In this document: positions 54,915 through 64,000 of the stretch, piece after piece | Position numbering within the stretch: the stretch's first letter is position 1 | Layout of the letters: every line of letters begins with the position of its first letter | Sequence record: PP620640 | Origin: Escherichia phage fKMPT1 | Reading direction: 5' to 3' (one strand) | Length of the DNA: 64,000 bases | Made by a program: the position numbers and the translations under genes | The notes under the pieces: generated by a model | Database searches by the model: none | What the model was told of the DNA's origin: nothing | Seen by the model: only the letters and a program-made list of their open reading frames with translations

Positions 54915-55106
54915 TTCTTTTTAGCCTCTAAATGTGCGTTTAATCTCAAATAAACTTTATGTAGTGGGACACATCACCAACAATGATGTTCTTCACTATT
55001 TCACGGAATTGATGTGTAGTTGTGGGAGCAATAAAAGTCTTTTACACTTTTACCTTTATAGGGTGTGCTTATAAATAATTAAAGGGGCATCAGCCCCTAT
55101 TCACAC

Positions 55107-55697
55107 TTAAGCTTTAGTCTTAAGTAGGTTCTTAAGTTTTTTGAGATTCATACTCTCATCAAACTTAAAACCAAATCCATTGACATAATCAATGAACTCG
55201 GATTTCTTACTGAGTGACAATGCGTAACTCATATCAAAGTTCTTACTTGTTTCTGCGTCTGGACTAGAGTTCACATCAAATGAAATTTCTGTAGGCTCAA
55301 GCTTGCCACTTCCCATATTATCAATTAATAGACATGTATAGTTTGCTGGATAGAAGTTTACACTGCCATCAACGTAGCTGTACTTATTATTATGGATAAG
55401 GTTGGAAAATACCTTAAGAAATGTTTCTGAGTCGTGGCATACAAGCTTGAATTGACTACTTTCTCCAAGAGCCACTAAAGAGTAAGGGCTTTCACTATCA
55501 ATGTCATAGTTTGGATTTGATGTTGTAACCGTTACACGCATCAAGTTATTAGCAATAGTCTTCTGCTTAAAAGAATTTGGAACATAGTGAAGACCTCTAT
55601 CACACTGGTTAACTAACTCTTTCAAGAGGTCATTAGCATACGGTGAATTAATTGATACAGAGCCATCACTATTATAATTAAAACTTACTGTTAACAT
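55107..55697 (-). CDS. hypothetical protein
   Basis: 196-aa ORF. Confidence 0.5.
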   Translation of the reverse strand: MLTVSFNYNSDGSVSINSPYANDLLKELVNQCDRGLHYVPNSFKQKTIANNLMRVTVTTSNPNYDIDSESPYSLVALGESSQFKLVCHDSETFLKVFSNLIHNNKYSYVDGSVNFYPANYTCLLIDNMGSGKLEPTEISFDVNSSPDAETSKNFDMSYALSLSKKSEFIDYVNGFGFKFDESMNLKKLKNLLKTKA

Positions 55698-55924
55698 TTT
55701 TCAGTTCTCCTGCGGTTTATAATTTTGCTGCAATAGAGAAACGAAGTAAACTCACTGGAAGAAACCATTAAGTGTTGTTCACTAGATTGAGCCATTGCCC
55801 TGAAATACATTCCAGTCAAAGCATCGTAGTGACTATTCTTTCCAATTGAGGTTATATAGCCATGACTCTTTGCAGTTTTATATAAATCTATAATATCTGC
55901 GATTTCTAATTGGGAACTACACAT
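55691..55924 (-). CDS. hypothetical small protein
   Basis: 77-aa ORF. Confidence 0.4.
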   Translation of the reverse strand: MCSSQLEIADIIDLYKTAKSHGYITSIGKNSHYDALTGMYFRAMAQSSEQHLMVSSSEFTSFLYCSKIINRRRTEKC

Positions 55925-56316
55925 AGATAATCCTCTTGTCTTCTGTAATTTTGAAAGAACAGGTACAGACCAATTTCAGAGGATGAATAGTAGAGTAACT
56001 CTACCCTTTTTGATTCCTTACAGTGATTGGTATTTTTACCTTTCTTCGGGTTATTTGATTTTCTCATTAAGTCTCCTTTGTAGAACAAGGCAGACCCACA
56101 GCTTTAAGTAAGATGGTACAGTAATCCATACAACAAGTCAAGAACTATTGCAAGTTAAAAAAGTTGTTGACAAAGGACTTGACAAGGTGTAGGCTTCTAA
56201 ATACTTAGAAGATAACTTAAAAGGTTCCTCTAAAAAGGCTATTTAAACAGATATCTTTCTGGATATCTATCTTTTATCTTAAAAGCCTTTTAAGAGGTCT
56301 TATAAGAGGCATACCA

Positions 56317-56688
56317 ATGAAAAACAGAACAAACAAAGGCCAGTTTAAAAAAGGCCAATCTGGAAACCCATCTGGAAGACCAAAAGGCTCTCGTAACAAA
56401 AGCTCACTTGTAAAAGCTCAACTGACCATTGATAATTCTGCTGAGTTTGCTGCAAAGTTGTTTGAGGCGATTGTTACAAGGGATGCTGCTAAGCTTGCAG
56501 AGTTCGGTTTGACGACTGACGATGTAAACCTGAAGTCGATGATGGAAGCTGGTAAAACTATCATGACTCACTCAGCAGGTGAGATGAAAGCCATTGCAGC
56601 AGACACTAAGAAGACTCCTGATAACGGTGGTCAGTCTCAGACAGAAAACAAACCAACGTTCTCTGCTGTTGCAACGCTTAAAAAATAA
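56317..56688 (+). CDS. hypothetical protein with basic N-terminal GNPSGRPKG motif
   Basis: 123-aa ORF. Confidence 0.5.
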   Translation: MKNRTNKGQFKKGQSGNPSGRPKGSRNKSSLVKAQLTIDNSAEFAAKLFEAIVTRDAAKLAEFGLTTDDVNLKSMMEAGKTIMTHSAGEMKAIAADTKKTPDNGGQSQTENKPTFSAVATLKK

Positions 56689-56769
56689 TTTTAAAAGGTG
56701 TTGACAGACTCTATAAAGCTACTCTAAAGTCTGTCACATCAAACAACAAATGAGAGAAGAGAGTAAAAT

Positions 56770-58185
56770 ATGAGCGAATTATTTAAACATGCGCACCTTC
56801 ATGCAGGTCGAACTGAAAATGGTGCTGTAAACCATACTTCATCAATGTCTGCTCTTGTAGACTTTTACAAAGCTGCTGGTTCAAGCCGTAGCAATGTAGA
56901 AATCTTACCAGACTTGTTCTACAAAGCTTTGCGTGAGGATGTTGATGTTGCAGTTCGTATTTTGCTTCACATGCGAGATGTACGAGAAGGTATGGGTGAG
57001 CGTAAAGCCTTCAGAACTGTTTTACTTCAAGCAATCGAAGATAAAGTTTTAGAGCCTACACAGGTTCTTCGTATTATGGATAAGATTGCAGAACTTGGTC
57101 GTTTTGATGACTTCAAAATCTTCGTAGGTACTCGTTTTGAGACAGATGCCTTTAAGCATTTAGAAGCAGCATTACTAGACCCTGAGACAGCAGGTTTAGC
57201 AGCTAAGTGGTTACCACGAGTAAAACCACGACACAAACAGTTTGTAAAACGTTTCTGTAAGTTTGCTAACTTGAGTGAGAGAGAGTATCGCACACTGTTA
57301 TCTGTACTGTCTGATACTGTTGAGCAAAAAATCTCTGCTAATGAGTTTGGTAAGATTGACTACAGCAAGATTCCTTCACTCGCTGCTGCACGTTACCAAA
57401 AACTCTTTAACCGTAAAGATGGTGAACGCTACAAAGCTTACATCGAGTCACTCTCAAAAGGTGAGGCTAAGATTAACGCTGGTGCTGTTTACCCATACGA
57501 TGTGATTAAGTCTATCAAGTATGGTAATGCAGATGTTGCTAATGAGCAGTGGAAAGCACTACCAAACTGGATGGCAGAAGGTGAAAACATTTTGTGTATG
57601 ACTGATGTTTCAAGCTCAATGTCTTGGGTGAATCTTGGTTCAATCACTGCTCTTGATATTGGTGTATCTCTTGCCTTGTATGTAGCAGAACGCAACACTG
57701 GTTGCTTTAAGAATGAGTTAATGGTTTACTCAACAAACCCTCACTTCATCGAACTGAGTGGTGATTTACGAAACCGTCATCGTCAGGTAATGCGTCACGT
57801 TGAATATGGTTCAACTAACTTACAAGCAGCTTTTGACCGTATTCTTGAGGTAGGTAAGAGAAACAACTTGACTCAGAAAGATATGCCAAGTAAGCTTATT
57901 ATCTTCTCTGATATGGAGTTTAATCAGGTTGACGGTGCAAATGGTCGTACAAACTTTGAAGCAATTCAGAGTAAGTACAAAAAAGCTGGATACGAAATGC
58001 CACAACTGGTATTCTGGTACTTAGCAAACCGTAATGGTACTTGCGAAGTATCTGTTAAGGATAACGGTGTAGCAATGGTATCAGGGTTCTCTCCAGCCAC
58101 TTTAAAAGCTCTGCTTGGTGGTGAGAAGTTTGACCCAATCAGCGTAATGCTCAAAGCAGTAATGATTGACCGTTACATCTGGTAA
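56770..58185 (+). CDS. vWA-domain protein with helical N-terminal domain (TROVE/Ro60-like or DUF2828-like candidate)
   Basis: 471 aa; helical N-terminus, then MIDAS-like DVSSSM and SDMEF vWA features. Confidence 0.5.
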   Translation: MSELFKHAHLHAGRTENGAVNHTSSMSALVDFYKAAGSSRSNVEILPDLFYKALREDVDVAVRILLHMRDVREGMGERKAFRTVLLQAIEDKVLEPTQVLRIMDKIAELGRFDDFKIFVGTRFETDAFKHLEAALLDPETAGLAAKWLPRVKPRHKQFVKRFCKFANLSEREYRTLLSVLSDTVEQKISANEFGKIDYSKIPSLAAARYQKLFNRKDGERYKAYIESLSKGEAKINAGAVYPYDVIKSIKYGNADVANEQWKALPNWMAEGENILCMTDVSSSMSWVNLGSITALDIGVSLALYVAERNTGCFKNELMVYSTNPHFIELSGDLRNRHRQVMRHVEYGSTNLQAAFDRILEVGKRNNLTQKDMPSKLIIFSDMEFNQVDGANGRTNFEAIQSKYKKAGYEMPQLVFWYLANRNGTCEVSVKDNGVAMVSGFSPATLKALLGGEKFDPISVMLKAVMIDRYIW

Positions 58186-58203
58186 AAAGTTTTAAAAAGG
58201 GTA

Positions 58204-58232
58204 TTGACAATGTGTTTAATACCCTTTAATAT
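58204..58232 (+). promoter_or_regulatory. sigma70-like promoter upstream of tRNA array
   Basis: TTGACA - 17 nt - TAATAT. Confidence 0.5.
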
Positions 58233-58350
58233 GTTCTACATAGAAACGAAATGAGAGCTTTTCTAAGATACTGAAAAATATTTTAAAAAAGTTCTTGACA
58301 ACCACTAAAAAATAATGTTAAAGTGGTTACATAGAGTTTGAAAAGTTTAT

Positions 58351-58427
58351 CTCTGTTTAGCTCAGCTTGGTAGAGCGTTCCGTTTGGGGCGGTAAGGCCG
58401 GAGGTTCAAGTCCTCCAACAGAGACCA
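58351..58427 (+). tRNA. tRNA-Pro (anticodon TGG)
   Basis: hand-folded cloverleaf, GGTTCAAGTCC T-arm, encoded CCA. Confidence 0.7.
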
Positions 58428-58434
58428 AATTAAT

Positions 58435-58512
58435 GTTCCAGTAGACAAAATGGTAAAGTCACCACTCTTTCAAAGTGGATATTTGAGGGTTCAAATCCCT
58501 TCTGGAACGCCA
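58435..58512 (+). tRNA. tRNA-Glu (anticodon TTC)
   Basis: perfect acceptor and anticodon stems, encoded CCA. Confidence 0.7.
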
Positions 58513-58603
58513 GTTTTGACAGAAGACCAATTGCAGCAAACTTAATCTTATTCATCTGACACGAAATCGGACAAAGAAGAGATTTGGTCTGGTCATTAAG
58601 AAT

Positions 58604-58680
58604 TGCGGGTATAGAGAAAGGGCGTCTCACATGTCTCATTAGCATGGTATCGGCAGGTTCGACTCCTGCACCCGCCTCCA
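58604..58680 (+). tRNA. tRNA-Met (anticodon CAT), 1:72 mismatch
   Basis: T-arm and anticodon arm clear; acceptor 5' boundary uncertain. Confidence 0.55.
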
Positions 58681-58763
58681 AATTTACAGAAGACCGTTTA
58701 CAGCAATATTTATTAAATTTTTAGCGGAAAAATTGAAAGATACGGTCTGGTAATACTAAACAT

Positions 58764-58840
58764 GGTTAGGAAGCACATAAGGTATGTGCGGTCGCCTGTT
58801 AAGCGAATGGCACAGGGTTCGAATCCCTGACTAACCGCCA
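58764..58840 (+). tRNA. tRNA-Asn (anticodon GTT)
   Basis: cloverleaf with perfect T-stem, CCA encoded. Confidence 0.65.
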
Positions 58841-58909
58841 AATTTAGGAGAGAAGCGATTGCTCACCGATTTGTAAGGTGCAAGTCCTTAGCCTGAATAG
58901 AAATTAAAT

Positions 58910-58997
58910 GTGTCGTTATCCCGTAGATGGTAGCGGTGGGGACTGTAAATCCCTTGTCATTGAGACTCGGTAGGTTCGACTCCTACACGGCACACCA
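58910..58997 (+). tRNA. tRNA-Tyr (anticodon GTA), long variable arm
   Basis: 88 nt type II structure, anticodon loop CTGTAAA. Confidence 0.7.
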
Positions 58998-59003
58998 AAT
59001 AAA

Positions 59004-59081
59004 GGTTATGTAGTTTAATCTGGTTAAAATACTCCCCTGTCACGGGAGATGATGAGGGTTCGAATCCCTTCGTAACCGCCA
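59004..59081 (+). tRNA. tRNA-Asp (anticodon GTC)
   Basis: anticodon arm ctccc-CTGTCAC-gggag. Confidence 0.7.
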
Positions 59082-59537
59082 AATTATAATAAGTATTTCA
59101 AAATGATGTTTTGAGAGGGCTATTTAGCCCCTCCCTTAAAGAGTTCTTACGAGTATTCTTTAAAGGAGCAGAAGACCAAATTCAGCAAGAACGTATGAAA
59201 TTTCAAGCCAATTTAATTTTGAAAATTTAAAACTTGGTCTGGCTCAACAAATTTACAGAAGACCGTTTACAGCAAAACTTAAACAATCTATTTCTCGGTA
59301 AAGAAAAGGCGAAGGTTCGATTCCTTCACTCGGCAGATGTCGAGTTGGTGTAATGGTAGCACTTAAGATGATAAACAACGGTCTGGTAATTGTCTTTGCA
59401 GTAGCTTATGTGGCTAATTATGTCGTCCCATGAGTGCCGATGAATTTCCTTAGCATGATTCTAGATTAGCTTAATAGGAAATGACTCTACAGACCCTTTA
59501 GCAAGGTCTGCGTAGGTTACTGCAAAGATAATTTAAT

Positions 59538-59613
59538 GGAAGTGTAGCAGAATGGTGATGCGGCAGACTTTTAATCTGACAGGCGATGGGTTCGAATCCC
59601 TCCACTTCTACCA
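59538..59613 (+). tRNA. tRNA-Lys (anticodon TTT)
   Basis: cloverleaf; weak T-stem; paralogous to 60859-60934. Confidence 0.55.
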
Positions 59614-59617
59614 ATAT

Positions 59618-59694
59618 GGTTCAGTCGCAGATAAGGTAATGCAGGGGTTTCATAAGCCCTATGAATGTGGGTTCGATTCCCATCTGAACCTCCA
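59618..59694 (+). tRNA. tRNA-Met/Ile2 (anticodon CAT)
   Basis: perfect acceptor stem, anticodon loop TTCATAA. Confidence 0.65.
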
Positions 59695-59696
59695 AT

Positions 59697-59771
59697 TGTG
59701 GGTTAGCATAAATGGTAATGCAAACGGCTGATAACCGTTAGAAGAGGGTTCGATACCCTCACCTACAACCA
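59697..59771 (+). tRNA. tRNA-Ile (anticodon GAT)
   Basis: anticodon arm aacgg-CTGATAA-ccgtt perfect. Confidence 0.7.
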
Positions 59772-59786
59772 ATTTCAATAAAGTTG

Positions 59787-59815
59787 TTGACATTGAGATG
59801 TGACTACTTTATAGT
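59787..59815 (+). promoter_or_regulatory. sigma70-like promoter inside tRNA region
   Basis: TTGACA - 17 nt - TATAGT. Confidence 0.55.
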
Positions 59816-60109
59816 AACTGAAAATGATTCAGCATATGTATAATTCAAACACCAATACATGAGCGTTAGACGTAACACAATGTGGGGAAATTTGTTGTAC
59901 ATATTCTGAATAGTTTTCGTTGCGTAGCGTCTATTTTGCAAAGTTAAAATAAATGCAAACGACAATGTTTTTCTGGCAGTAGCTTGATAGGCTAAACACC
60001 AGTGAGGTCTTCCAACCCCTCATCAAAGAATTTGGCGTACTAGCCCACGGTATGATTAATAAGGTGGGCATCTTTAAGGGCTTTCTAAGAGAGTCTTTAA
60101 AGATAATTA

Positions 60110-60191
60110 CGGGGCGTATCTCAGCTGTCTTCTAAACAGCCGTTAACCGAGTAAGTGGAGTATGCGGGTTCGAGTCCTGCCGCCTCGACCA
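60110..60191 (+). tRNA. tRNA-like gene, non-canonical (no D-arm; anticodon-like hairpin with TCT)
   Basis: perfect acceptor and T-arm with CCA; internal hairpin gctgt-CTTCTAA-acagc; only 7 nt where D-arm should be. Confidence 0.4.
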
Positions 60192-60334
60192 ATTTAGTTA
60201 GCAGATTACTTAGACGACCTTATCGGGTCTTCCTGTAGGGAGGTGGTCTGTATCTCATGTTTTCCAGAACATGTAAATAATCTGAGAAGGGGCTTTACAG
60301 TGTTGTGAAAATACGGTAAGCTTCGAACTATAAT

Positions 60335-60417
60335 GTGGGACGATGTTAAGACTCTAAGGCATGAGCAACGGCTTCCAACACCGTTTCAAAGGGGTTCAAA
60401 TCCTCCGTCCCATGCCA
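60335..60417 (+). tRNA. tRNA-like gene, isotype undetermined (9-nt loop hairpin containing CCA/TCC)
   Basis: acceptor/T-arm/CCA canonical; internal hairpin aacgg-CTTCCAACA-ccgtt; D region irregular. Confidence 0.4.
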
Positions 60418-60430
60418 AAGTCTTATTAGG

Positions 60431-60518
60431 GGTAGGTAGCGGCTAATGGTAGCCAAACTGTCTTGAAAACAGTTGCCACTGTAGAGATACGGTGAGGGTT
60501 CGACTCCTTTACTTACCG
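60431..60518 (+). tRNA. tRNA-Ser (anticodon TGA), long variable arm; CCA not encoded
   Basis: anticodon arm actgt-CTTGAAA-acagt perfect; 20-nt variable arm. Confidence 0.65.
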
Positions 60519-60773
60519 CCTAATAAGATTTACACCGTCCATGCTCGCTCGCATTTTCGGTTTATCCCTCGTGTTGTCGTACACTTTGATAAAGCACCTA
60601 GTAGGTGTCACGGAGAAGAGATAATATCAAGCTCTCCAAAGGTTCTAGTCACCGGATTAAACAAGACTATGCAAAGACCTATTTAGGTCTTTTTAGAGGG
60701 CTTCTAAGGTTATTACAGCTTGTTGTGGAACCTTGTTGCTTAGGTTCTTAGAAGTTCTCTAAAAAGATTTAAT

Positions 60774-60851
60774 GGGAGATTGACGGTAATTGGTAAACCT
60801 ATCTCGCTTAGAACGAGATGTTTGAGGGTTCGAATCCCTTGTCTCCTACCA
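60774..60851 (+). tRNA. tRNA with Leu anticodon TAG, short variable arm
   Basis: anticodon arm tctcg-CTTAGAA-cgaga perfect; type I length; A73. Confidence 0.55.
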
Positions 60852-60858
60852 AATTAAT

Positions 60859-60934
60859 GCAGGTGTAGCAAAATGGTTATGCGGCTGACTCTTAATCAGT
60901 AAGACGATGGGTTCAATTCCCTCCACCTGTACCA
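60859..60934 (+). tRNA. tRNA-Lys (anticodon CTT)
   Basis: anticodon loop CTCTTAA; encoded CCA. Confidence 0.6.
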
Positions 60935-60940
60935 AACATT

Positions 60941-61016
60941 GGGGTCATAGTTTATATGGTTAAAATTCGAGTTTTGCAAACTTGGGAACTGAGTTCAATT
61001 CTCAGTGACTCCACCA
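60941..61016 (+). tRNA. tRNA-Ala (anticodon TGC)
   Basis: G3:U70 wobble in acceptor stem, anticodon loop TTTGCAA, perfect T-stem. Confidence 0.75.
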
Positions 61017-61022
61017 ATTAGT

Positions 61023-61097
61023 GCATCCATAGTTTAAACGGGAAAATTACAGTCTTCCAAACTGAGGTTGAGGGTTCGATTCCCTCTGGATGCTCCA
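61023..61097 (+). tRNA. tRNA-Gly (anticodon TCC)
   Basis: perfect acceptor stem, U73 discriminator, anticodon loop CTTCCAA. Confidence 0.7.
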
Positions 61098-61103
61098 AAC
61101 AAT

Positions 61104-61180
61104 GCTGCTTTCGTATAATTGGCTATTACACATCCCTTGTAAGGATGGAGATGCGGGTTCAAGTCCTGTGAGCAGCACCA
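61104..61180 (+). tRNA. tRNA-Thr (anticodon TGT)
   Basis: anticodon arm catcc-CTTGTAA-ggatg perfect. Confidence 0.7.
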
Positions 61181-61275
61181 ATTTAGAGGTCAAGTGAAAG
61201 ACCGCTGGTGTCAACTGAAGACCGTAACAAATTCCACGGAGTTGAGTTAGCGGCACAACTTCAGACCTCTTTCAT

Positions 61276-61350
61276 ACTCGCTTAGTTTATATGGTAAAAC
61301 ATCACCCTTACAAGATGAAGAAAAAGGTTCAAGTCCTTTAGTGAGTACCA
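61276..61350 (+). tRNA. tRNA-Val (anticodon TAC)
   Basis: perfect D- and T-stems, anticodon loop CTTACAA. Confidence 0.65.
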
Positions 61351-61351
61351 T

Positions 61352-61429
61352 GTTCCAGTATCCCAATTGGCAGAGGATGCAAGCTCAAACCTTGTACTAG
61401 TGACGGTTCGAATCCGTCTTGGAACACCA
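61352..61429 (+). tRNA. tRNA with Leu anticodon CAA, short variable arm
   Basis: anticodon arm gcaag-CTCAAAC-cttgt; type I length; A73. Confidence 0.55.
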
Positions 61430-61543
61430 ATTTTAGGAGAGCACTATGAGTGATAAGTCAATAGCAAAAAAGTTTAGAGCGTCATACCTAAACAGACGTA
61501 AAAACAAAGATTGTGAAAAACTGTATGGTGTTCTTGTAGGTAA

Positions 61544-61619
61544 GCAGGATTAGTTCAAATGGATAGAGCAGCAGTCTACGAAGCTGTTAATAGGGGTTCG
61601 AATCCCTTATCCTGCGCCA
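61544..61619 (+). tRNA. tRNA-Arg (anticodon ACG)
   Basis: perfect acceptor stem; anticodon loop CTACGAA. Confidence 0.65.
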
Positions 61620-61638
61620 ATTTAAAGAGGCTATTTAG

Positions 61639-62196
61639 ATGAGATATTTGAAGTATGCTTCATGGATTTTCTTAGCTTTGTTAGAGCCATTTGCAGCAAT
61701 CTTAGCAGTTATCTTAGCACCTTTCGTGGTTCCATTCTACAGTGAGAAGAAAGGACATCTACCTTTCGGCTTCAGATGGATGGAGACATACGACAACCCA
61801 ATTGATGGTGATGAAGGTCATGTCGAACGATGGGCTAAGATTAGAAAGATTGGTAAGCTGGGTGTCTACATGCAGAGAGTTGGATGGCTCTGGAGAAACA
61901 AAGCTTATAACTTCTCTTACCATGTATTAGGAAGAGATGTAAAAGATGTTACTAAGTGGAAAGGCAATATCAACGTAAGTTCTAACCCTGAAGATAATCA
62001 GACAGGTTATCTCCTAATGTGGAACAGTAATGCTTGGGGATTATTCGCTTTTATCCCATCAATTAAAGTCTTTGGTAAACAATTCTACTGGAGAATTTAT
62101 ATTGGGTGGAAGCTAAAAAGTGTTGTCCCAGAAGAAAGAGCATTCTCAAGGGAAAGAGTTATGTTGGCATTCTTTATTCATCCACTAAGAAAGTAA
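61639..62196 (+). CDS. membrane protein embedded in tRNA array
   Basis: 185 aa; N-terminal hydrophobic helix, aromatic-rich C-terminus, AAAGAGG RBS. Confidence 0.55.
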   Translation: MRYLKYASWIFLALLEPFAAILAVILAPFVVPFYSEKKGHLPFGFRWMETYDNPIDGDEGHVERWAKIRKIGKLGVYMQRVGWLWRNKAYNFSYHVLGRDVKDVTKWKGNINVSSNPEDNQTGYLLMWNSNAWGLFAFIPSIKVFGKQFYWRIYIGWKLKSVVPEERAFSRERVMLAFFIHPLRK

Positions 62197-62204
62197 AGAT
62201 TTAA

Positions 62205-62280
62205 AGGGGATTAGTTTACAAGGTTAAAACCTCGGTCTTTGAAATCGAAGAAGTTGGTTCAATTCCAACATCCCCCGCCA
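62205..62280 (+). tRNA. tRNA-Gln (anticodon TTG)
   Basis: perfect D-, anticodon and T-stems; 1:72 mismatch. Confidence 0.65.
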
Positions 62281-62282
62281 AT

Positions 62283-62361
62283 GCTCCATTACTCCAATTG
62301 GCAGAGAGGCCAGACTTAAAATCTGTGTTATGTATCGGTTCGAATCCGATATGGAGTACCA
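62283..62361 (+). tRNA. tRNA with Leu anticodon TAA, short variable arm
   Basis: anticodon loop CTTAAAA; perfect T-stem; A73. Confidence 0.55.
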
Positions 62362-62366
62362 AATTT

Positions 62367-62442
62367 AGCGGTATAGCATAACTGGCAATGCAGCAGTCTC
62401 TGAAGCTGTCCTATTAAGGTTCAAATCCTTATGCCGCTGCCA
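62367..62442 (+). tRNA. tRNA-Gln (anticodon CTG)
   Basis: perfect D- and T-stems; anticodon loop CTCTGAA. Confidence 0.65.
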
Positions 62443-62473
62443 CTTCTAAGGGTTCTTACGAGAGTCCTTAAAT

Positions 62474-62549
62474 GTGGCCTTATCATAAACGGTAATGACC
62501 CATGCTGTGAACATGGTCTATACGGGTTCAAATCCCGTAGGTCACCCCA
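62474..62549 (+). tRNA. tRNA-His (anticodon GTG)
   Basis: all four stems near-perfect; C73 discriminator. Confidence 0.75.
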
Positions 62550-62554
62550 ATTTA

Positions 62555-62631
62555 TAGTCCAAGTAGCTTATATGGTTAAAGCGCGTGTCTGAAAAACATG
62601 AGAAGAGGGTTCAAATCCCACTGGACTACCA
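62555..62631 (+). tRNA. tRNA-Phe (anticodon GAA), boundaries approximate
   Basis: anticodon arm cgtgt-CTGAAAA-acatg; acceptor/D junction irregular. Confidence 0.5.
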
Positions 62632-62646
62632 ATTTCAAAGGTGCTT

Positions 62647-63382
62647 AATGAAAGAGATGACAGAACAAGGTAAGGAGATTTTTAATCTCTTAAAAACTGG
62701 TAAAGGGTTTTCTAACCCCCTTATTACTGGTGCAGCAGTTCTCGGTGGAACCGTAGCTGCCTCTACATCACTTGTAAGCTCTATTAGCTCTGTAACAGAC
62801 CCTACAATAAAAGATAAGCTTGTTGCTGCTGGGCTTACAACAGTTCTGCTTAGCAGCTTTACAACGAGTCTGACAAGCACTACAGCAACTACTAAGACCC
62901 TAACAGACTATGGTCAAAAGTCCATTGATGAGTTTTCATCACGTATGCAGGTAGCAAAAGGTTATTCTAATGCTATGGGTGCAGCAGGTGAACAAGTTGG
63001 CTGTACACCATTTAGTGGTATTATGGGTGTTGCTACAGAGTATGGTCAAAAAGCTATGGATACGATTAACAGCGCACTAGATGGCGTTAATGATGTATTA
63101 AGCGACTTACAAGATGCTATTGACAAAGGTCTTGATACTGTTTCTGATTTAGCTAACCAAGCTGTTAGCAAGATTAATGAAGGTATCTCGAAGATTACAG
63201 CTTATGCAGATGAAGTTGTGCAGATGATTGAAGAAGAAGCTGCCCTTATTGCAGAGTACCTTAAAACGAATATCAATGGGTTCTTAGCAGGTATCTTACC
63301 AGACTGGTTTGATGATGCTTGTAAAACTGGTGTGATTGATACTATTGCAACACCAGAAATGAAGAACGCATTACAGAAATAA
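62647..63382 (+). CDS. hypothetical Ser/Thr/Ala-rich protein
   Basis: about 245 aa from ATG after AAAGG; track ORF start 62585 overlaps tRNA-Phe and is unlikely. Confidence 0.5.
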
Positions 63383-63383
63383 C

Positions 63384-63476
63384 GGAAGATTAACCCTAAA
63401 AGGTAAGGGAGCAGTTTGCTAAACTGCCAGTAGCTGAGAAATCGGTGTACCAGTTCAAGTCTGGTATCTTCCTCCA
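63384..63476 (+). tRNA. tRNA-Ser (anticodon GCT), long variable arm
   Basis: 93 nt; anticodon arm gcagt-TTGCTAA-actgc perfect; T-stem perfect; CCA encoded. Confidence 0.7.
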
Positions 63477-63480
63477 ATTT

Positions 63481-63556
63481 GAATCCGTGACAGAAATGGC
63501 TATGTGCCTGTCTGCAAAACAGGTTTATAAGGGTTCGAGTCCCTTCGGATTCTCCA
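63481..63556 (+). tRNA. tRNA-Cys (anticodon GCA)
   Basis: perfect acceptor stem, U73, anticodon arm cctgt-CTGCAAA-acagg. Confidence 0.7.
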
Positions 63557-63778
63557 AGTTATTTTACTCTCTCTCAATTAAAATAATAATAATGCCCTGC
63601 TATAAGTATTCTTCCTTTCGCTACCGAAGAGTATTTTTAGACAGGGCTTTTTTACAGAGTTATACTTTATAAGAAGCCTTATACAGTATGTCTCTGACGT
63701 ACATTGTGGTTTCTCCTTGACGGTCTCTGTGCCGTCTTTTTTAAGGGGAAACAAGATTAATTATTTGGAGAAAACATA

Positions 63779-63979
63779 ATGAGCGAGAACGTTTATAAAG
63801 AACTTTATGAAGCTAACAAGAAGCTAGAATTTATGCAGAATACTATCATGGCAATTGCAGACAGATTATCTGTAGCAACAGGCATTGATATTAAAGAAGC
63901 ATCTATGGATGCACTTCTTGATGCTGTTGATGCAAAGTTCGAAGTTAAGAAAGAAGAGACTGCTACAGACTCTGAATAA
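63779..63979 (+). CDS. hypothetical small acidic protein
   Basis: 66-aa ORF with GGAGAAAA RBS. Confidence 0.5.
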   Translation: MSENVYKELYEANKKLEFMQNTIMAIADRLSVATGIDIKEASMDALLDAVDAKFEVKKEETATDSE

Positions 63980-64000
63980 TTCTATTTGCGGAGGTGCTTA

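What the first reader, a model, noticed from the sequence alone, without database searches (positions are those of the whole stretch)
56770..58185. vWA-domain protein with helical N-terminal domain directly upstream of the tRNA/ncRNA array
The 471-aa protein has a helical N-terminal half then a vWA-like domain with a MIDAS-type DVSSSM motif, the domain order of TROVE/Ro60-like RNA-binding proteins (also compatible with phage DUF2828-type vWA proteins). Ro60 orthologues bind small structured, sometimes tRNA-like, RNAs. This gene sits immediately before the promoter that starts the tRNA array. The functional link is a hypothesis only.
Basis: inference. Interest (0 to 1): 0.5.

Follow-up and report, generated by a model that had tools for sequence, protein, structure and literature searches.

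The report
Phage Ro60-like protein with partner RNAs
This phage gene encodes a ring-shaped Ro60-like protein already reported to block a bacterial defence nuclease, and next to it, here and in very distant phages, lies an apparently undescribed family of small structured RNAs, one a tRNA mimic, that are its likely RNA partners.

Summary

The protein part is already published. The window is a Felixounavirus, and the protein is 98% identical to Bas63 gp130, reported as Ro60-like, upstream of the tRNAs, and a counter of the Ppl defence nuclease.

What appears new is an RNA family. Four copies lie between tRNAs (58515-59391). Each is closed by a covarying bulged helix with a conserved CAGCAA motif. 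The fourth encloses a permuted tRNA-like domain (V-T-hairpin-D), as in bacterial YrlA Y RNA. A covariance model finds 100 hits in 1.67 Mb of loci carrying homologues, all on the gene's strand. It finds none in 0.92 Mb of control viral DNA or in the T4/T5 tRNA arrays. In 38 of 55 loci an element lies within 500 nt of the gene (4 expected). Binding is inferred, not shown, and gp130 counters Ppl without these RNAs.

The parts
56701..56730 (+). Sigma-70-like promoter candidate 40 nt upstream of the Ro-like ORF (TTGACA-18-TAAAGT).
   Evidence: Consensus scan, 10 of 12 matches. Not evidence of function.
56770..58185 (+). Ro60-fold protein of 471 aa. It has a helical TROVE-like ring domain (about residues 1-263) and a vWA domain with a complete MIDAS motif (D279, S281, S283, T349, D381). 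It belongs to Pfam DUF2828+DUF7788 and PHROG 850, and is the orthologue of Bas63 gp130.
   Evidence: (461/471 identical to bas63_0130).
58204..58324 (+). Two sigma-70-like promoter candidates (58204-58232 and 58295-58324), each embedded in an inverted repeat, between the ORF and the first tRNA.
   Evidence: stem 58196-58227 of 12 pairs.
58351..63556 (+). Array of 25 tRNA genes, all on the same strand as the ORF. It is interrupted by two ORFs (DUF7338 at 61639-62196 and DUF7217 at 62585-63382) and by structured non-tRNA spacers.
58515..58597 (+). Y-like RNA element E1 (short). Outer stem TGAC/GTCA, AGA/G internal loop, inner stem AGACCAA/TTGGTCT, and a CAGCAA motif. It fills the spacer between tRNA-Glu and tRNA-Met.
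   Evidence: R2 63 bits. The fold is and covariation.
58682..58755 (+). Y-like RNA element E2 (short). Outer stem TTAC/GTAA and inner stem AGACCGT/ACGGTCT. It lies between tRNA-Met and tRNA-Asn.
   Evidence: R2 69.7 bits.
59164..59247 (+). Y-like RNA element E3 (short). Outer stem GAGC/GCTC and inner stem AGACCAA/TTGGTCT.
   Evidence: R2 69.8 bits.
59251..59391 (+). Y-like RNA element E4 (long, 141 nt). It has the same closing helix and CAGCAA motif, enclosing a small hairpin, a T arm (GAAGG-TTCGATT-CCTTC), a closed 7-bp hairpin and a D arm (GTGT-AATGGTA-GCAC). This is a permuted tRNA-like domain in the YrlA order V-T-AS-D.
   Evidence: R2 54.1 bits. The Rfam tRNA model matches only the T arm. 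The same layout occurs in distant loci, and the order was checked against Chen 2014.

Best explanation
The ORF encodes a Ro60-type protein. An N-terminal helical-repeat (TROVE-like) domain and a C-terminal vWA domain with an intact metal-ion site together give the Ro60 fold. It is the orthologue of Bas63 gp130, a phage counter-defence factor that neutralises the host Ppl nuclease. I propose that during infection it also assembles, as Ro60 does with Y RNAs, with four small RNAs transcribed from the adjacent tRNA array and released by tRNA processing. All four share a conserved bulged closing helix with a single-stranded CAGCAA motif, which is the presumed protein-binding module. One of them carries a permuted tRNA-like domain, which is the presumed effector or tethering module, as in YrlA. 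The resulting RNP would bind or shield nucleic-acid 3' ends, or sequester host nucleases such as Ppl or PNPase.

Shown here or in cited papers: the fold, the orthology, the RNA family's conserved structure, its genetic linkage to the gene, and (published) the anti-Ppl phenotype.

Inferred: physical binding of the RNAs by the protein, expression and processing of the RNAs, and how nuclease inhibition works.

For: Orthology and function: the protein is 98% identical to Bas63 gp130 with the same synteny. Deleting gp130 gives tiny plaques on ppl+ cells, complementation rescues this, and transferring gp130 to T7 rescues T7.

RNA family: there are 4 copies in the window against 0.21 expected. RNAalifold recovers the closing helix on an unfitted alignment. 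All 11 pairs covary, with 97% pairing against 64% in shuffles and 29-45% in slid controls.

Linkage: model R2 gives 100 hits, all on the gene strand, in 1.67 Mb of homologue loci. It gives 0 hits in 0.92 Mb of control viral DNA, and noise only in the T5 and T4 tRNA arrays. In 38 of 55 loci an element lies within 500 nt of the gene, against 4.1+-1.9 permuted. Sixteen such loci have no tRNA at all. Adjacent copies occur in Listeria, Campylobacter, Enterococcus, Bacillus, Staphylococcus and Klebsiella phages.

tRNA mimicry: 12 of 19 long variants carry a T loop in the order T-hairpin-D, matching YrlA.

Precedent: Thermus phage phiRo60 binds phage-encoded Y-like RNAs and host PNPase.
Against: gp130 expressed alone from a plasmid, or inserted in T7, suffices to counter Ppl, so that activity does not need the phage RNAs. 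No binding, expression or processing data exist for the RNAs. The element does not match Rfam YrlA or Y RNA models and lacks the GNCGAAN0-1G Ro-binding motif. About a third of homologue loci show no element in the available flanks, including the Serratia jumbo phage and the Fusobacterium phage. Alignment A4 was fitted to the model, and alignment A2 was pre-selected for pairing, which inflates the percentage-paired figures. Ppl is described as a DNA exonuclease, not an RNA enzyme. The helical half has no sequence match to Pfam TROVE.
Confidence: 0.65

Rival explanations
1. The protein acts alone as a Ppl inhibitor. It either binds Ppl through the vWA-MIDAS face or caps single-stranded DNA 3'-OH ends in the ring. 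The neighbouring RNA elements would then be unrelated to it, for example processing or punctuation signals of the transcription unit.
For: gp130 alone, from a plasmid or inside T7, restores plaquing on ppl+ cells. Ppl is reported as an ssDNA 3'-5' exonuclease activated by 3'-OH ends. vWA-MIDAS domains are typical protein-interaction modules (established knowledge).
Against: The RNA element abuts the gene in 16 loci that contain no tRNA at all. It is on the gene strand in 100 of 100 hits and is absent from the T4 and T5 arrays and from control DNA. This is hard to explain without a gene-specific relationship. Host RNAs could substitute in the T7 and plasmid experiments.
Confidence: 0.2
2. The protein and its RNAs form an RNA quality-control or repair platform for the phage tRNA pool. 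They would work with RNA ligases, as in the bacterial rsr-yrlBA-rtcBA operon, to salvage or triage tRNAs cut by host anticodon nucleases. Ppl inhibition would be a secondary effect.
For: The gene is enriched at the edges of tRNA arrays. RtcB lies 1.3 kb downstream in Listeria phage LMTA-34. In Serratia phage BF an RNA ligase lies immediately upstream and a CCA-adding/2',3'-cPDE enzyme lies 3.3 kb downstream. RNA ligase families are the most recurrent neighbours, in 4-5 of 36 loci. Iyer et al. 2021 list ROT/TROVE proteins among phage RNA-repair gear. LeBron encodes Ro-like, PNK and RNA ligase proteins.
Against: There is no obligate ligase neighbour, since most loci have none within 3 kb. The only experimental phenotype concerns a DNA exonuclease defence. 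Half of the homologue loci have no tRNA nearby.
Confidence: 0.25
3. The repeated elements are promoters, terminators or remnants of a mobile element, rather than functional RNAs.
For: E1, E2 and E4 begin with TTGACA or TTTACA, and one weak promoter match overlaps E2. The interiors are AT-rich and individual folding z-scores are modest, from -0.9 to -1.9.
Against: Distant copies lack the -35-like hexamer but keep the helix through compensatory changes at all 11 pairs. The hits are strictly strand-specific. A conserved single-stranded CAGCAA motif and a permuted tRNA-like interior recur in at least six lineages. There are no terminator-type U tracts.
Confidence: 0.05

Closest known systems
Bas63 (Escherichia phage JohannRWettstein) gp130, PhageMaP preprint 10.1101/2024.10.10.617714
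   Same: It is the same gene: 461/471 identical, the same length, and the same position between the DUF5681 gene and tRNA-Pro. It was reported as structurally similar to Ro60, directly upstream of the tRNAs, and as a counter of Ppl. The authors speculate that some 'tRNAs' are Y RNAs.
   Different: The preprint did not identify any partner RNA. The candidates defined here are not annotated tRNAs but spacer elements between them, and they are conserved far beyond Felixounavirus.
Bacterial Ro60 (Rsr) with Y RNAs YrlA/YrlB (Salmonella rsr-yrlBA-rtcBA; D. radiodurans Rsr-Yrn1-PNPase RYPER), Chen et al. 2014, PMC4201824
   Same: The protein fold is a ring plus a vWA domain. Several Y-like RNAs are encoded next to the protein gene on the same strand. 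There are short and long forms, and the long form carries a tRNA-like domain in the order V-T-AS-D inside a terminal stem. RNA ligase or RtcB is an occasional neighbour.
   Different: The protein is not a Pfam TROVE member by sequence. The RNA lacks GNCGAAN0-1G and is not found by Rfam models. Its recognition module is an AGA/G-bulged helix with CAGCAA. The RNAs are embedded in a tRNA array. The known phenotype is anti-defence against a DNA exonuclease.
Thermus phage phiLo phiRo60 with Yrl1/Yrl2 (NAR 2025, PMC12135203; PDB 9l5y)
   Different: phiRo60 is annotated as a TROVE-domain protein and shares only about 15% identity. Its Yrl RNAs were picked by a CGAA motif and RNAfold, without comparative support. 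No tRNA-array context is reported.
Small stable RNAs in phage tRNA clusters (T4 rnaC/rnaD 'species 1 and 2'; T5 RNAI, RNAIII, RNA1, RNA2 and others)
   Same: They are non-tRNA stable RNAs, some tRNA-like and of unknown function, interspersed in phage tRNA arrays (annotations).
   Different: T4 and T5 lack the Ro-like gene, and model R2 finds nothing above noise in their arrays. They are therefore different RNA families.

Membership tests
Pfam DUF2828 + DUF7788 (PHROG 850 'RNA-binding protein') | Matches to both Pfam models above their gathering scores, and a full-length match to the PHROG profile. | tested here: met
   PF11443 scores 101.8 bits (cut-off 29) and PF25043 scores 149.3 bits (cut-off 27.1). 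phrog_850 matches at 3.8e-183 over residues 1-471. All 73 homologues carry both domains.
Ro60 / TROVE-vWA ring proteins | Overall fold: a helical-repeat ring domain followed by a vWA domain, superposable on solved Ro60 structures over both domains. | tested here: met
Ro60 / TROVE-vWA ring proteins | A MIDAS motif in the vWA domain (DxSxS ... T ... D). | tested here: met
   D279, S281, S283, T349 and D381 are invariant in 73 sequences. This stretch aligns to Ro60's DVSASM.
Ro60 / TROVE-vWA ring proteins | A sequence match to the Pfam TROVE domain model (PF05731). | tested here: not met
   There is no TROVE hit at E<=0.1 for the window protein or at E<=1 for any of 73 relatives. Only the vWA half shows a weak specific signal: PF25045 vWA_Ro60 in 14 of 73 relatives, best E 4.7e-4.
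Ro60 / TROVE-vWA ring proteins | Binds Y RNA on the outer surface and misfolded RNA 3' ends in the central cavity. | not testable with these tools
   This needs RIP/CLIP, EMSA or a structure.
YrlA-type bacterial Y RNA (for element E4, 59251-59391) | A tRNA-like domain in the order V, T arm, acceptor-like stem-loop, D arm, enclosed by a stem formed from the RNA's 5' and 3' ends. | tested here: met
   RNAfold gives this layout for E4. The same order recurs in L001, L017, L023, L028, L031, L092, L093 and L095, with covarying T stems. The defining order was checked in Chen 2014, section 6.
YrlA-type bacterial Y RNA (for element E4, 59251-59391) | The GNCGAAN0-1G motif near the 5' end, and a match to the curated covariance model. 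| tested here: not met
   The only motif hit (GGCGAAGG at 59308) is part of the T stem, not near the 5' end, and is absent from distant long variants. There is no Rfam Y RNA or YrlA hit at E<=1 over 55000-64000 or at E<=10 over 59150-59420.
YrlA-type bacterial Y RNA (for element E4, 59251-59391) | Encoded next to a Ro60 orthologue, usually on the same strand. | tested here: met
   All 100 hits are on the gene strand. In 38 of 55 loci an element lies within 500 nt, against 4.1 expected.
Anti-Ppl counter-defence protein (Bas63 gp130) | Orthology to the tested protein. The function itself is relief of Ppl restriction. | tested here: met
   Orthology: 98% identity and identical synteny. The function was not tested here and comes from a preprint.

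The most novel reading that the evidence does not exclude
DUF2828/DUF7788 Ro-like proteins and the RNA family defined here (an AGA/G-bulged closing helix, a CAGCAA motif, and a variable or permuted-tRNA interior) form a widespread, previously unrecognised phage Ro-Y RNP. It spans phages of enterobacteria, Vibrio, Campylobacter, Firmicutes and possibly mycobacteria. Its RNA recognition module differs from all known Y RNAs. It would account for part of the unexplained 'non-tRNA' content of phage tRNA arrays and would act in counter-defence against host nucleases.
Probability: 0.45. Interest if true: 0.8.

Novelty: new variant of a known kind. Interest (0 to 1): 0.66.

Why it matters
The protein itself is not new. 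Its Ro60-like fold, its position upstream of the tRNAs and its anti-Ppl role are published for a 98%-identical orthologue, and databases already label the family 'RNA-binding' or 'Ro-like'.

What this analysis adds is a concrete, testable RNA partner. It is a structured RNA family with strong covariation, strict strand specificity and tight genetic linkage to the gene across very distant phages. One form mimics tRNA in the same permuted way as bacterial YrlA.

If the protein binds these RNAs, three things follow. Ro-Y RNPs would be far more common in phages than the Pfam TROVE annotation suggests. Ro60 recognition of Y RNA would be shown to have diversified. And there would be defined reagents (E1-E4 and a covariance model) to ask how a Ro ring neutralises a defence nuclease, and what the non-tRNA spacers in phage tRNA arrays do.

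Tried and rejected
- **Sequence search against PDB:** the single protein found nothing. The family profile gave only sub-significant Ro60 hits at E about 0.3, so the fold search was needed.
- **Other profile libraries:** PADLOC and NCBIfam gave no hits.
- **Rfam:** there was no Y RNA or YrlA match around the gene.
- **Ro-binding motif GNCGAAN0-1G:** there was one hit in a gap, at background frequency, and it turned out to be part of a T stem. I rejected it as a marker.
- **Exact-motif scan of IMG/VR for CAGAAGACCnnnnnCAGCAA:** multi-copy hits occurred only in Felixounavirus contigs and the single hits look like chance. This was not useful for diversity, but those loci served as a negative control.
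- **Promoter explanation for the element:** rejected, because distant copies lose the -35-like hexamer yet keep the helix.
- **'General tRNA-array feature' explanation:** rejected, because the element is absent from the T5 and T4 arrays and present next to the gene in tRNA-free loci.
- **Obligate protein partner:** the neighbour census found none. DUF5681 is a neighbour only within Ounavirinae-like phages.
- **Literature:** searches for DUF2828 returned only plant papers. No primary Ppl mechanism paper is in the library, only a review.
- **Not done:** I did not inspect the model's cavity, because no coordinates were available.

Full report
**1. Observation.** The ORF at 56770-58185 (+, ATG, 471 aa) exists as described. 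ARAGORN finds 25 tRNA genes at 58351-63556, all on the + strand, and the first starts 166 nt after the stop codon. Between the ORF and tRNA-Pro lie two sigma-70-like sites (58204-58232 and 58295-58324). A third lies 40 nt upstream of the ORF. The DVSSSM motif is at residues 279-284. In an alignment of 73 homologues at 40-88% identity, D279, S281, S283, T349 and D381 are invariant, which gives a complete MIDAS signature.

**2. Identity of the genome and the family.** The window is 100% identical to Salmonella phage fBSPA4 and about 95% identical to many Felixounavirus genomes. Pfam assigns DUF2828 and DUF7788 to the protein, and PHROG 850 ('RNA-binding protein') matches it end to end. tblastn finds homologues in 709 phage records, from hosts including Escherichia, Salmonella, Mycobacterium, Vibrio, Listeria, Staphylococcus, Campylobacter, Enterococcus and Bacillus, as well as in Lak megaphages. 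These are variously annotated 'RNA-binding protein', 'Ro-like RNA binding protein', 'vWFA protein' or 'DUF2828'. The large protein database holds at least 2926 relatives.

**3. Fold.** AlphaFold2 with the 73-sequence alignment gives pLDDT 90.1 and pTM 0.89. The model is helical to about residue 263, followed by an alpha/beta vWA domain.
- **Foldseek against the PDB:** the top 11 hits are all Ro60/TROVE proteins. They are 9kop, Xenopus 2i91 and 1yvp, human 9nfa, 9nf8 and 9nep, Thermus phage phiLo 9l5y, and D. radiodurans 2nvo. E-values run from 2.8e-8 to 1.8e-6 over 512-560 alignment columns. Generic vWA domains start at E 1.7e-3 with about 170 columns.

The helical half therefore superposes on the TROVE ring as well. 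At sequence level the relationship is barely visible. There is no Pfam TROVE hit for this protein or for any of the 73 relatives. PF25045 (Ro60 vWA) is hit weakly by 14 of 73 relatives. The family profile reaches Ro60 in the PDB only at E about 0.3, at the MIDAS strand.

bas63_0130 has the same length and position as the window ORF and is 461/471 identical.

Related published work:
- Thermus phage phiRo60 binds two phage Y-like RNAs and host PNPase.
- Iyer et al. list ROT/TROVE proteins among phage RNA-repair functions.
- LeBron gp53, a 31.5%-identical homologue, is moderately toxic on overexpression.
- A 2026 review describes Ppl as an ssDNA 3'-5' exonuclease activated by nucleotide depletion and by 3'-OH ends.

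**5. Linkage to tRNA arrays.** In annotated phages, the positions relative to the homologue are as follows.

| Phage | Nearest tRNA or RNA-repair neighbour |
|---|---|
| Klebsiella FBKp34 | tRNA array starts 480 nt downstream |
| Campylobacter F370 | three tRNAs end about 240 nt upstream |
| Listeria LMTA-34 | array ends about 620 nt upstream; RtcB 1.3 kb downstream |
| Enterococcus Bill | array with a tmRNA ends 1.2 kb upstream |
| Bacillus 2S-4 | 13 tRNAs end about 190 nt upstream |
| Mycobacteriophage Samty | one tRNA 1.2 kb upstream |
| Staphylococcus S-CoN_Ph7 | one tRNA 2.3 kb downstream |
| Vibrio XZ1 | 26 tRNAs end 5.5 kb upstream |
| Serratia BF | none within 12 kb; RNA ligase immediately upstream, CCA-adding/cPDE enzyme 3.3 kb downstream |
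| Fusobacterium phiKSUM | none within 12 kb |

In 80 IMG/VR loci, every tRNA found is on the gene's strand. After collapsing these to 17 protein clusters, 9 have a tRNA within 1 kb. Among the 11 with any tRNA, 9 are within 1 kb, against 3.4+-1.5 under random placement (p about 0.0006). The link is frequent but not universal.

**6. A structured RNA family in the array.** The non-tRNA spacers fold unusually well, with z-scores from -3.8 to -6.0 for the larger ones.

Four elements share the motif CAGAAGACCnnnTnCAGCAA. They lie at 58515-58597, 58682-58755, 59164-59247 and 59251-59391. That is 4 matches against 0.21 expected. RNAfold closes each with the same helix: an outer 4-bp stem, an AGA/G internal loop, and an inner 7-bp stem AGACCNN/NNGGTCT.

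Stems differ between copies and between genomes by compensatory changes, for example TGAC/GTCA, TTAC/GTAA, TTGC/GCAA, GAGC/GCTC and GGGC/GTCC, and AA/TT against GT/AC. On a plain MAFFT alignment of 30 distinct copies, RNAalifold predicts exactly this helix. Five of 11 pairs change on both sides, although those copies had been pre-selected for pairing.

No Rfam family matches the elements.

**7. The RNA tracks the gene.** A covariance model built from the Felixounavirus copies (R1) found significant matches in loci whose protein is only about 40% identical. Inner stems were fully replaced by compensatory pairs while CAGCAA was retained.

On the broader alignment, all 11 pairs show double changes. 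Pairing is 97% against 64% in shuffles, and 29-45% when the register is slid. That alignment was fitted to the model.

The second-generation model (R2) gave these results.

| Sequence searched | Result |
|---|---|
| 1.67 Mb of homologue-bearing loci | 100 hits at E<=1, all 100 on the gene strand |
| 0.92 Mb of unrelated viral DNA, each stretch containing the 20-nt 5' motif by chance | 0 hits |
| Complete T5 and T4 tRNA regions, filters off | 17.4 bits or less, on either strand |
| Rest of the 64-kb window, filters off | 15.2 bits or less |

Of 85 hits outside Felixounavirus, 43 lie within 500 nt of the gene and none lies inside it. At locus level, 38 of 55 are within 500 nt, against 4.1+-1.9 permuted. 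Thirteen of 17 protein clusters carry the element. Sixteen loci have it next to the gene with no tRNA anywhere in the locus. Adjacent copies occur in Listeria, Campylobacter, Enterococcus, Bacillus, Staphylococcus and Klebsiella phages, and weakly in Mycobacterium phages. About a third of loci show none, including Serratia BF and the Fusobacterium phage.

**8. A tRNA mimic.** The long form (E4) encloses a small hairpin, a T arm, a closed hairpin and a D arm. Rfam's tRNA model matches only its T arm. Twelve of 19 long hits contain a GTTCRA T loop, against 3 of 81 short hits. At least six lineages show the same T-hairpin-D order, with covarying T stems and often canonical D arms.

This is the V-T-AS-D order that defines YrlA. 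However, the terminal recognition module differs and the GNCGAAN0-1G motif is absent.

**9. Interpretation.** The best-supported picture is a Ro-Y-type RNP, made of a Ro60-fold protein plus short and long Y-like RNAs produced from the tRNA transcription unit.

The published anti-Ppl activity is autonomous to the protein. The RNAs are therefore more likely regulators, tethers or specificity factors, as Y RNAs are for Rsr, than essential cofactors for that activity. How a Ro ring blocks a 3'-5' ssDNA exonuclease is unknown. Capping of 3' ends in the ring, or MIDAS-mediated binding of Ppl, are both inferences.

An RNA-repair or quality-control role alongside ligases remains plausible and is not exclusive of this picture.

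**10. Verdict.** The protein part is already known. The RNA family and its linkage to DUF2828/DUF7788 genes were not found in Rfam 15 or in the searchable literature. They make this a new variant of the Ro60-Y RNA kind, pending binding and expression data.

Noticed in passing
window 60105-60194: This is a degenerate tRNA-Arg(TCT)-like element with an encoded CCA end. It is called as a tRNA in Bas63, L092 and L093, but ARAGORN does not call it here, and Rfam gives only a weak 23-bit tRNA-like hit. It folds with an acceptor stem and T arm but poor D and anticodon arms.
   Followed up: partly
window 59911-60195 vs L094 10254-10539: This 286-nt stretch inside the array is 97.6% identical to a contig whose Ro-like protein is only 63% identical. 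That suggests recent horizontal exchange or mosaicism within tRNA arrays.
   Followed up: no
window 60335-60417: This is a cryptic tRNA-like element just upstream of tRNA-Ser. It has an 8-bp acceptor stem, a canonical T arm (GGTTCAAATCC) and an encoded CCA, but no proper D arm and an oversized 'anticodon' loop. Neither ARAGORN nor Rfam calls it.
   Followed up: partly
window 58196-58227 and 58300-58330: Both promoter-like sites between the ORF and the array sit inside inverted repeats. One example is AAAGGGTATTGACA...TAATACCCTTT, which forms 12 pairs. The -35 hexamer is therefore in a hairpin, and the meaning of this is unknown.
   Followed up: no
window 56317-56688: A small DUF5681 protein (123 aa, N-terminal GNPSGRPKG-type basic motif) is the conserved upstream neighbour of the Ro-like gene in all Ounavirinae-like contigs, down to 55% protein identity (L092-L095). 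It is not a neighbour in more distant phages.
   Followed up: partly
window 61639-62196 and 62585-63382: Two protein-coding genes (DUF7338, 185 aa; DUF7217, 265 aa with tape-measure-like coiled-coil similarity) are embedded inside the tRNA array on the same strand.
   Followed up: no
window 59398-59417, 59976-59995, 62560-62579: A repeat resembling a tRNA 5' half (GCAGTAGCTTATGTGGCTAA-like) occurs twice in non-tRNA spacers and once in tRNA-Phe. This hints at further tRNA fragments or pseudogenes in the gaps.
   Followed up: no
L005 (Listeria phage LMTA-34) 17808-19019; L008 (Serratia phage BF) 10256-11515 and 16811-17923: RNA-repair enzymes lie close to the Ro-like gene in some phages. These are RtcB in the Listeria phage, and an RNA ligase plus a tRNA nucleotidyltransferase/2',3'-cyclic phosphodiesterase in the Serratia phage. 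The arrangement echoes the bacterial rsr-rtcB operon.
   Followed up: partly
L216 (phage T5) 10285-13950 and 20849-21567: The T5 record annotates eight 'stable RNAs with unknown functions', some described as tRNA-like, inside its tRNA region. They do not match the RNA model built here.
   Followed up: partly
L051 9728-9840: One distant variant of the element encloses a normal-order D arm, anticodon-like arm and T arm. The bulged closing helix replaces the acceptor stem, instead of enclosing the permuted layout.
   Followed up: no
L007 (Enterococcus phage Bill) 11346-11693: A tmRNA gene is annotated inside the phage tRNA array, upstream of the Ro-like gene.
   Followed up: no
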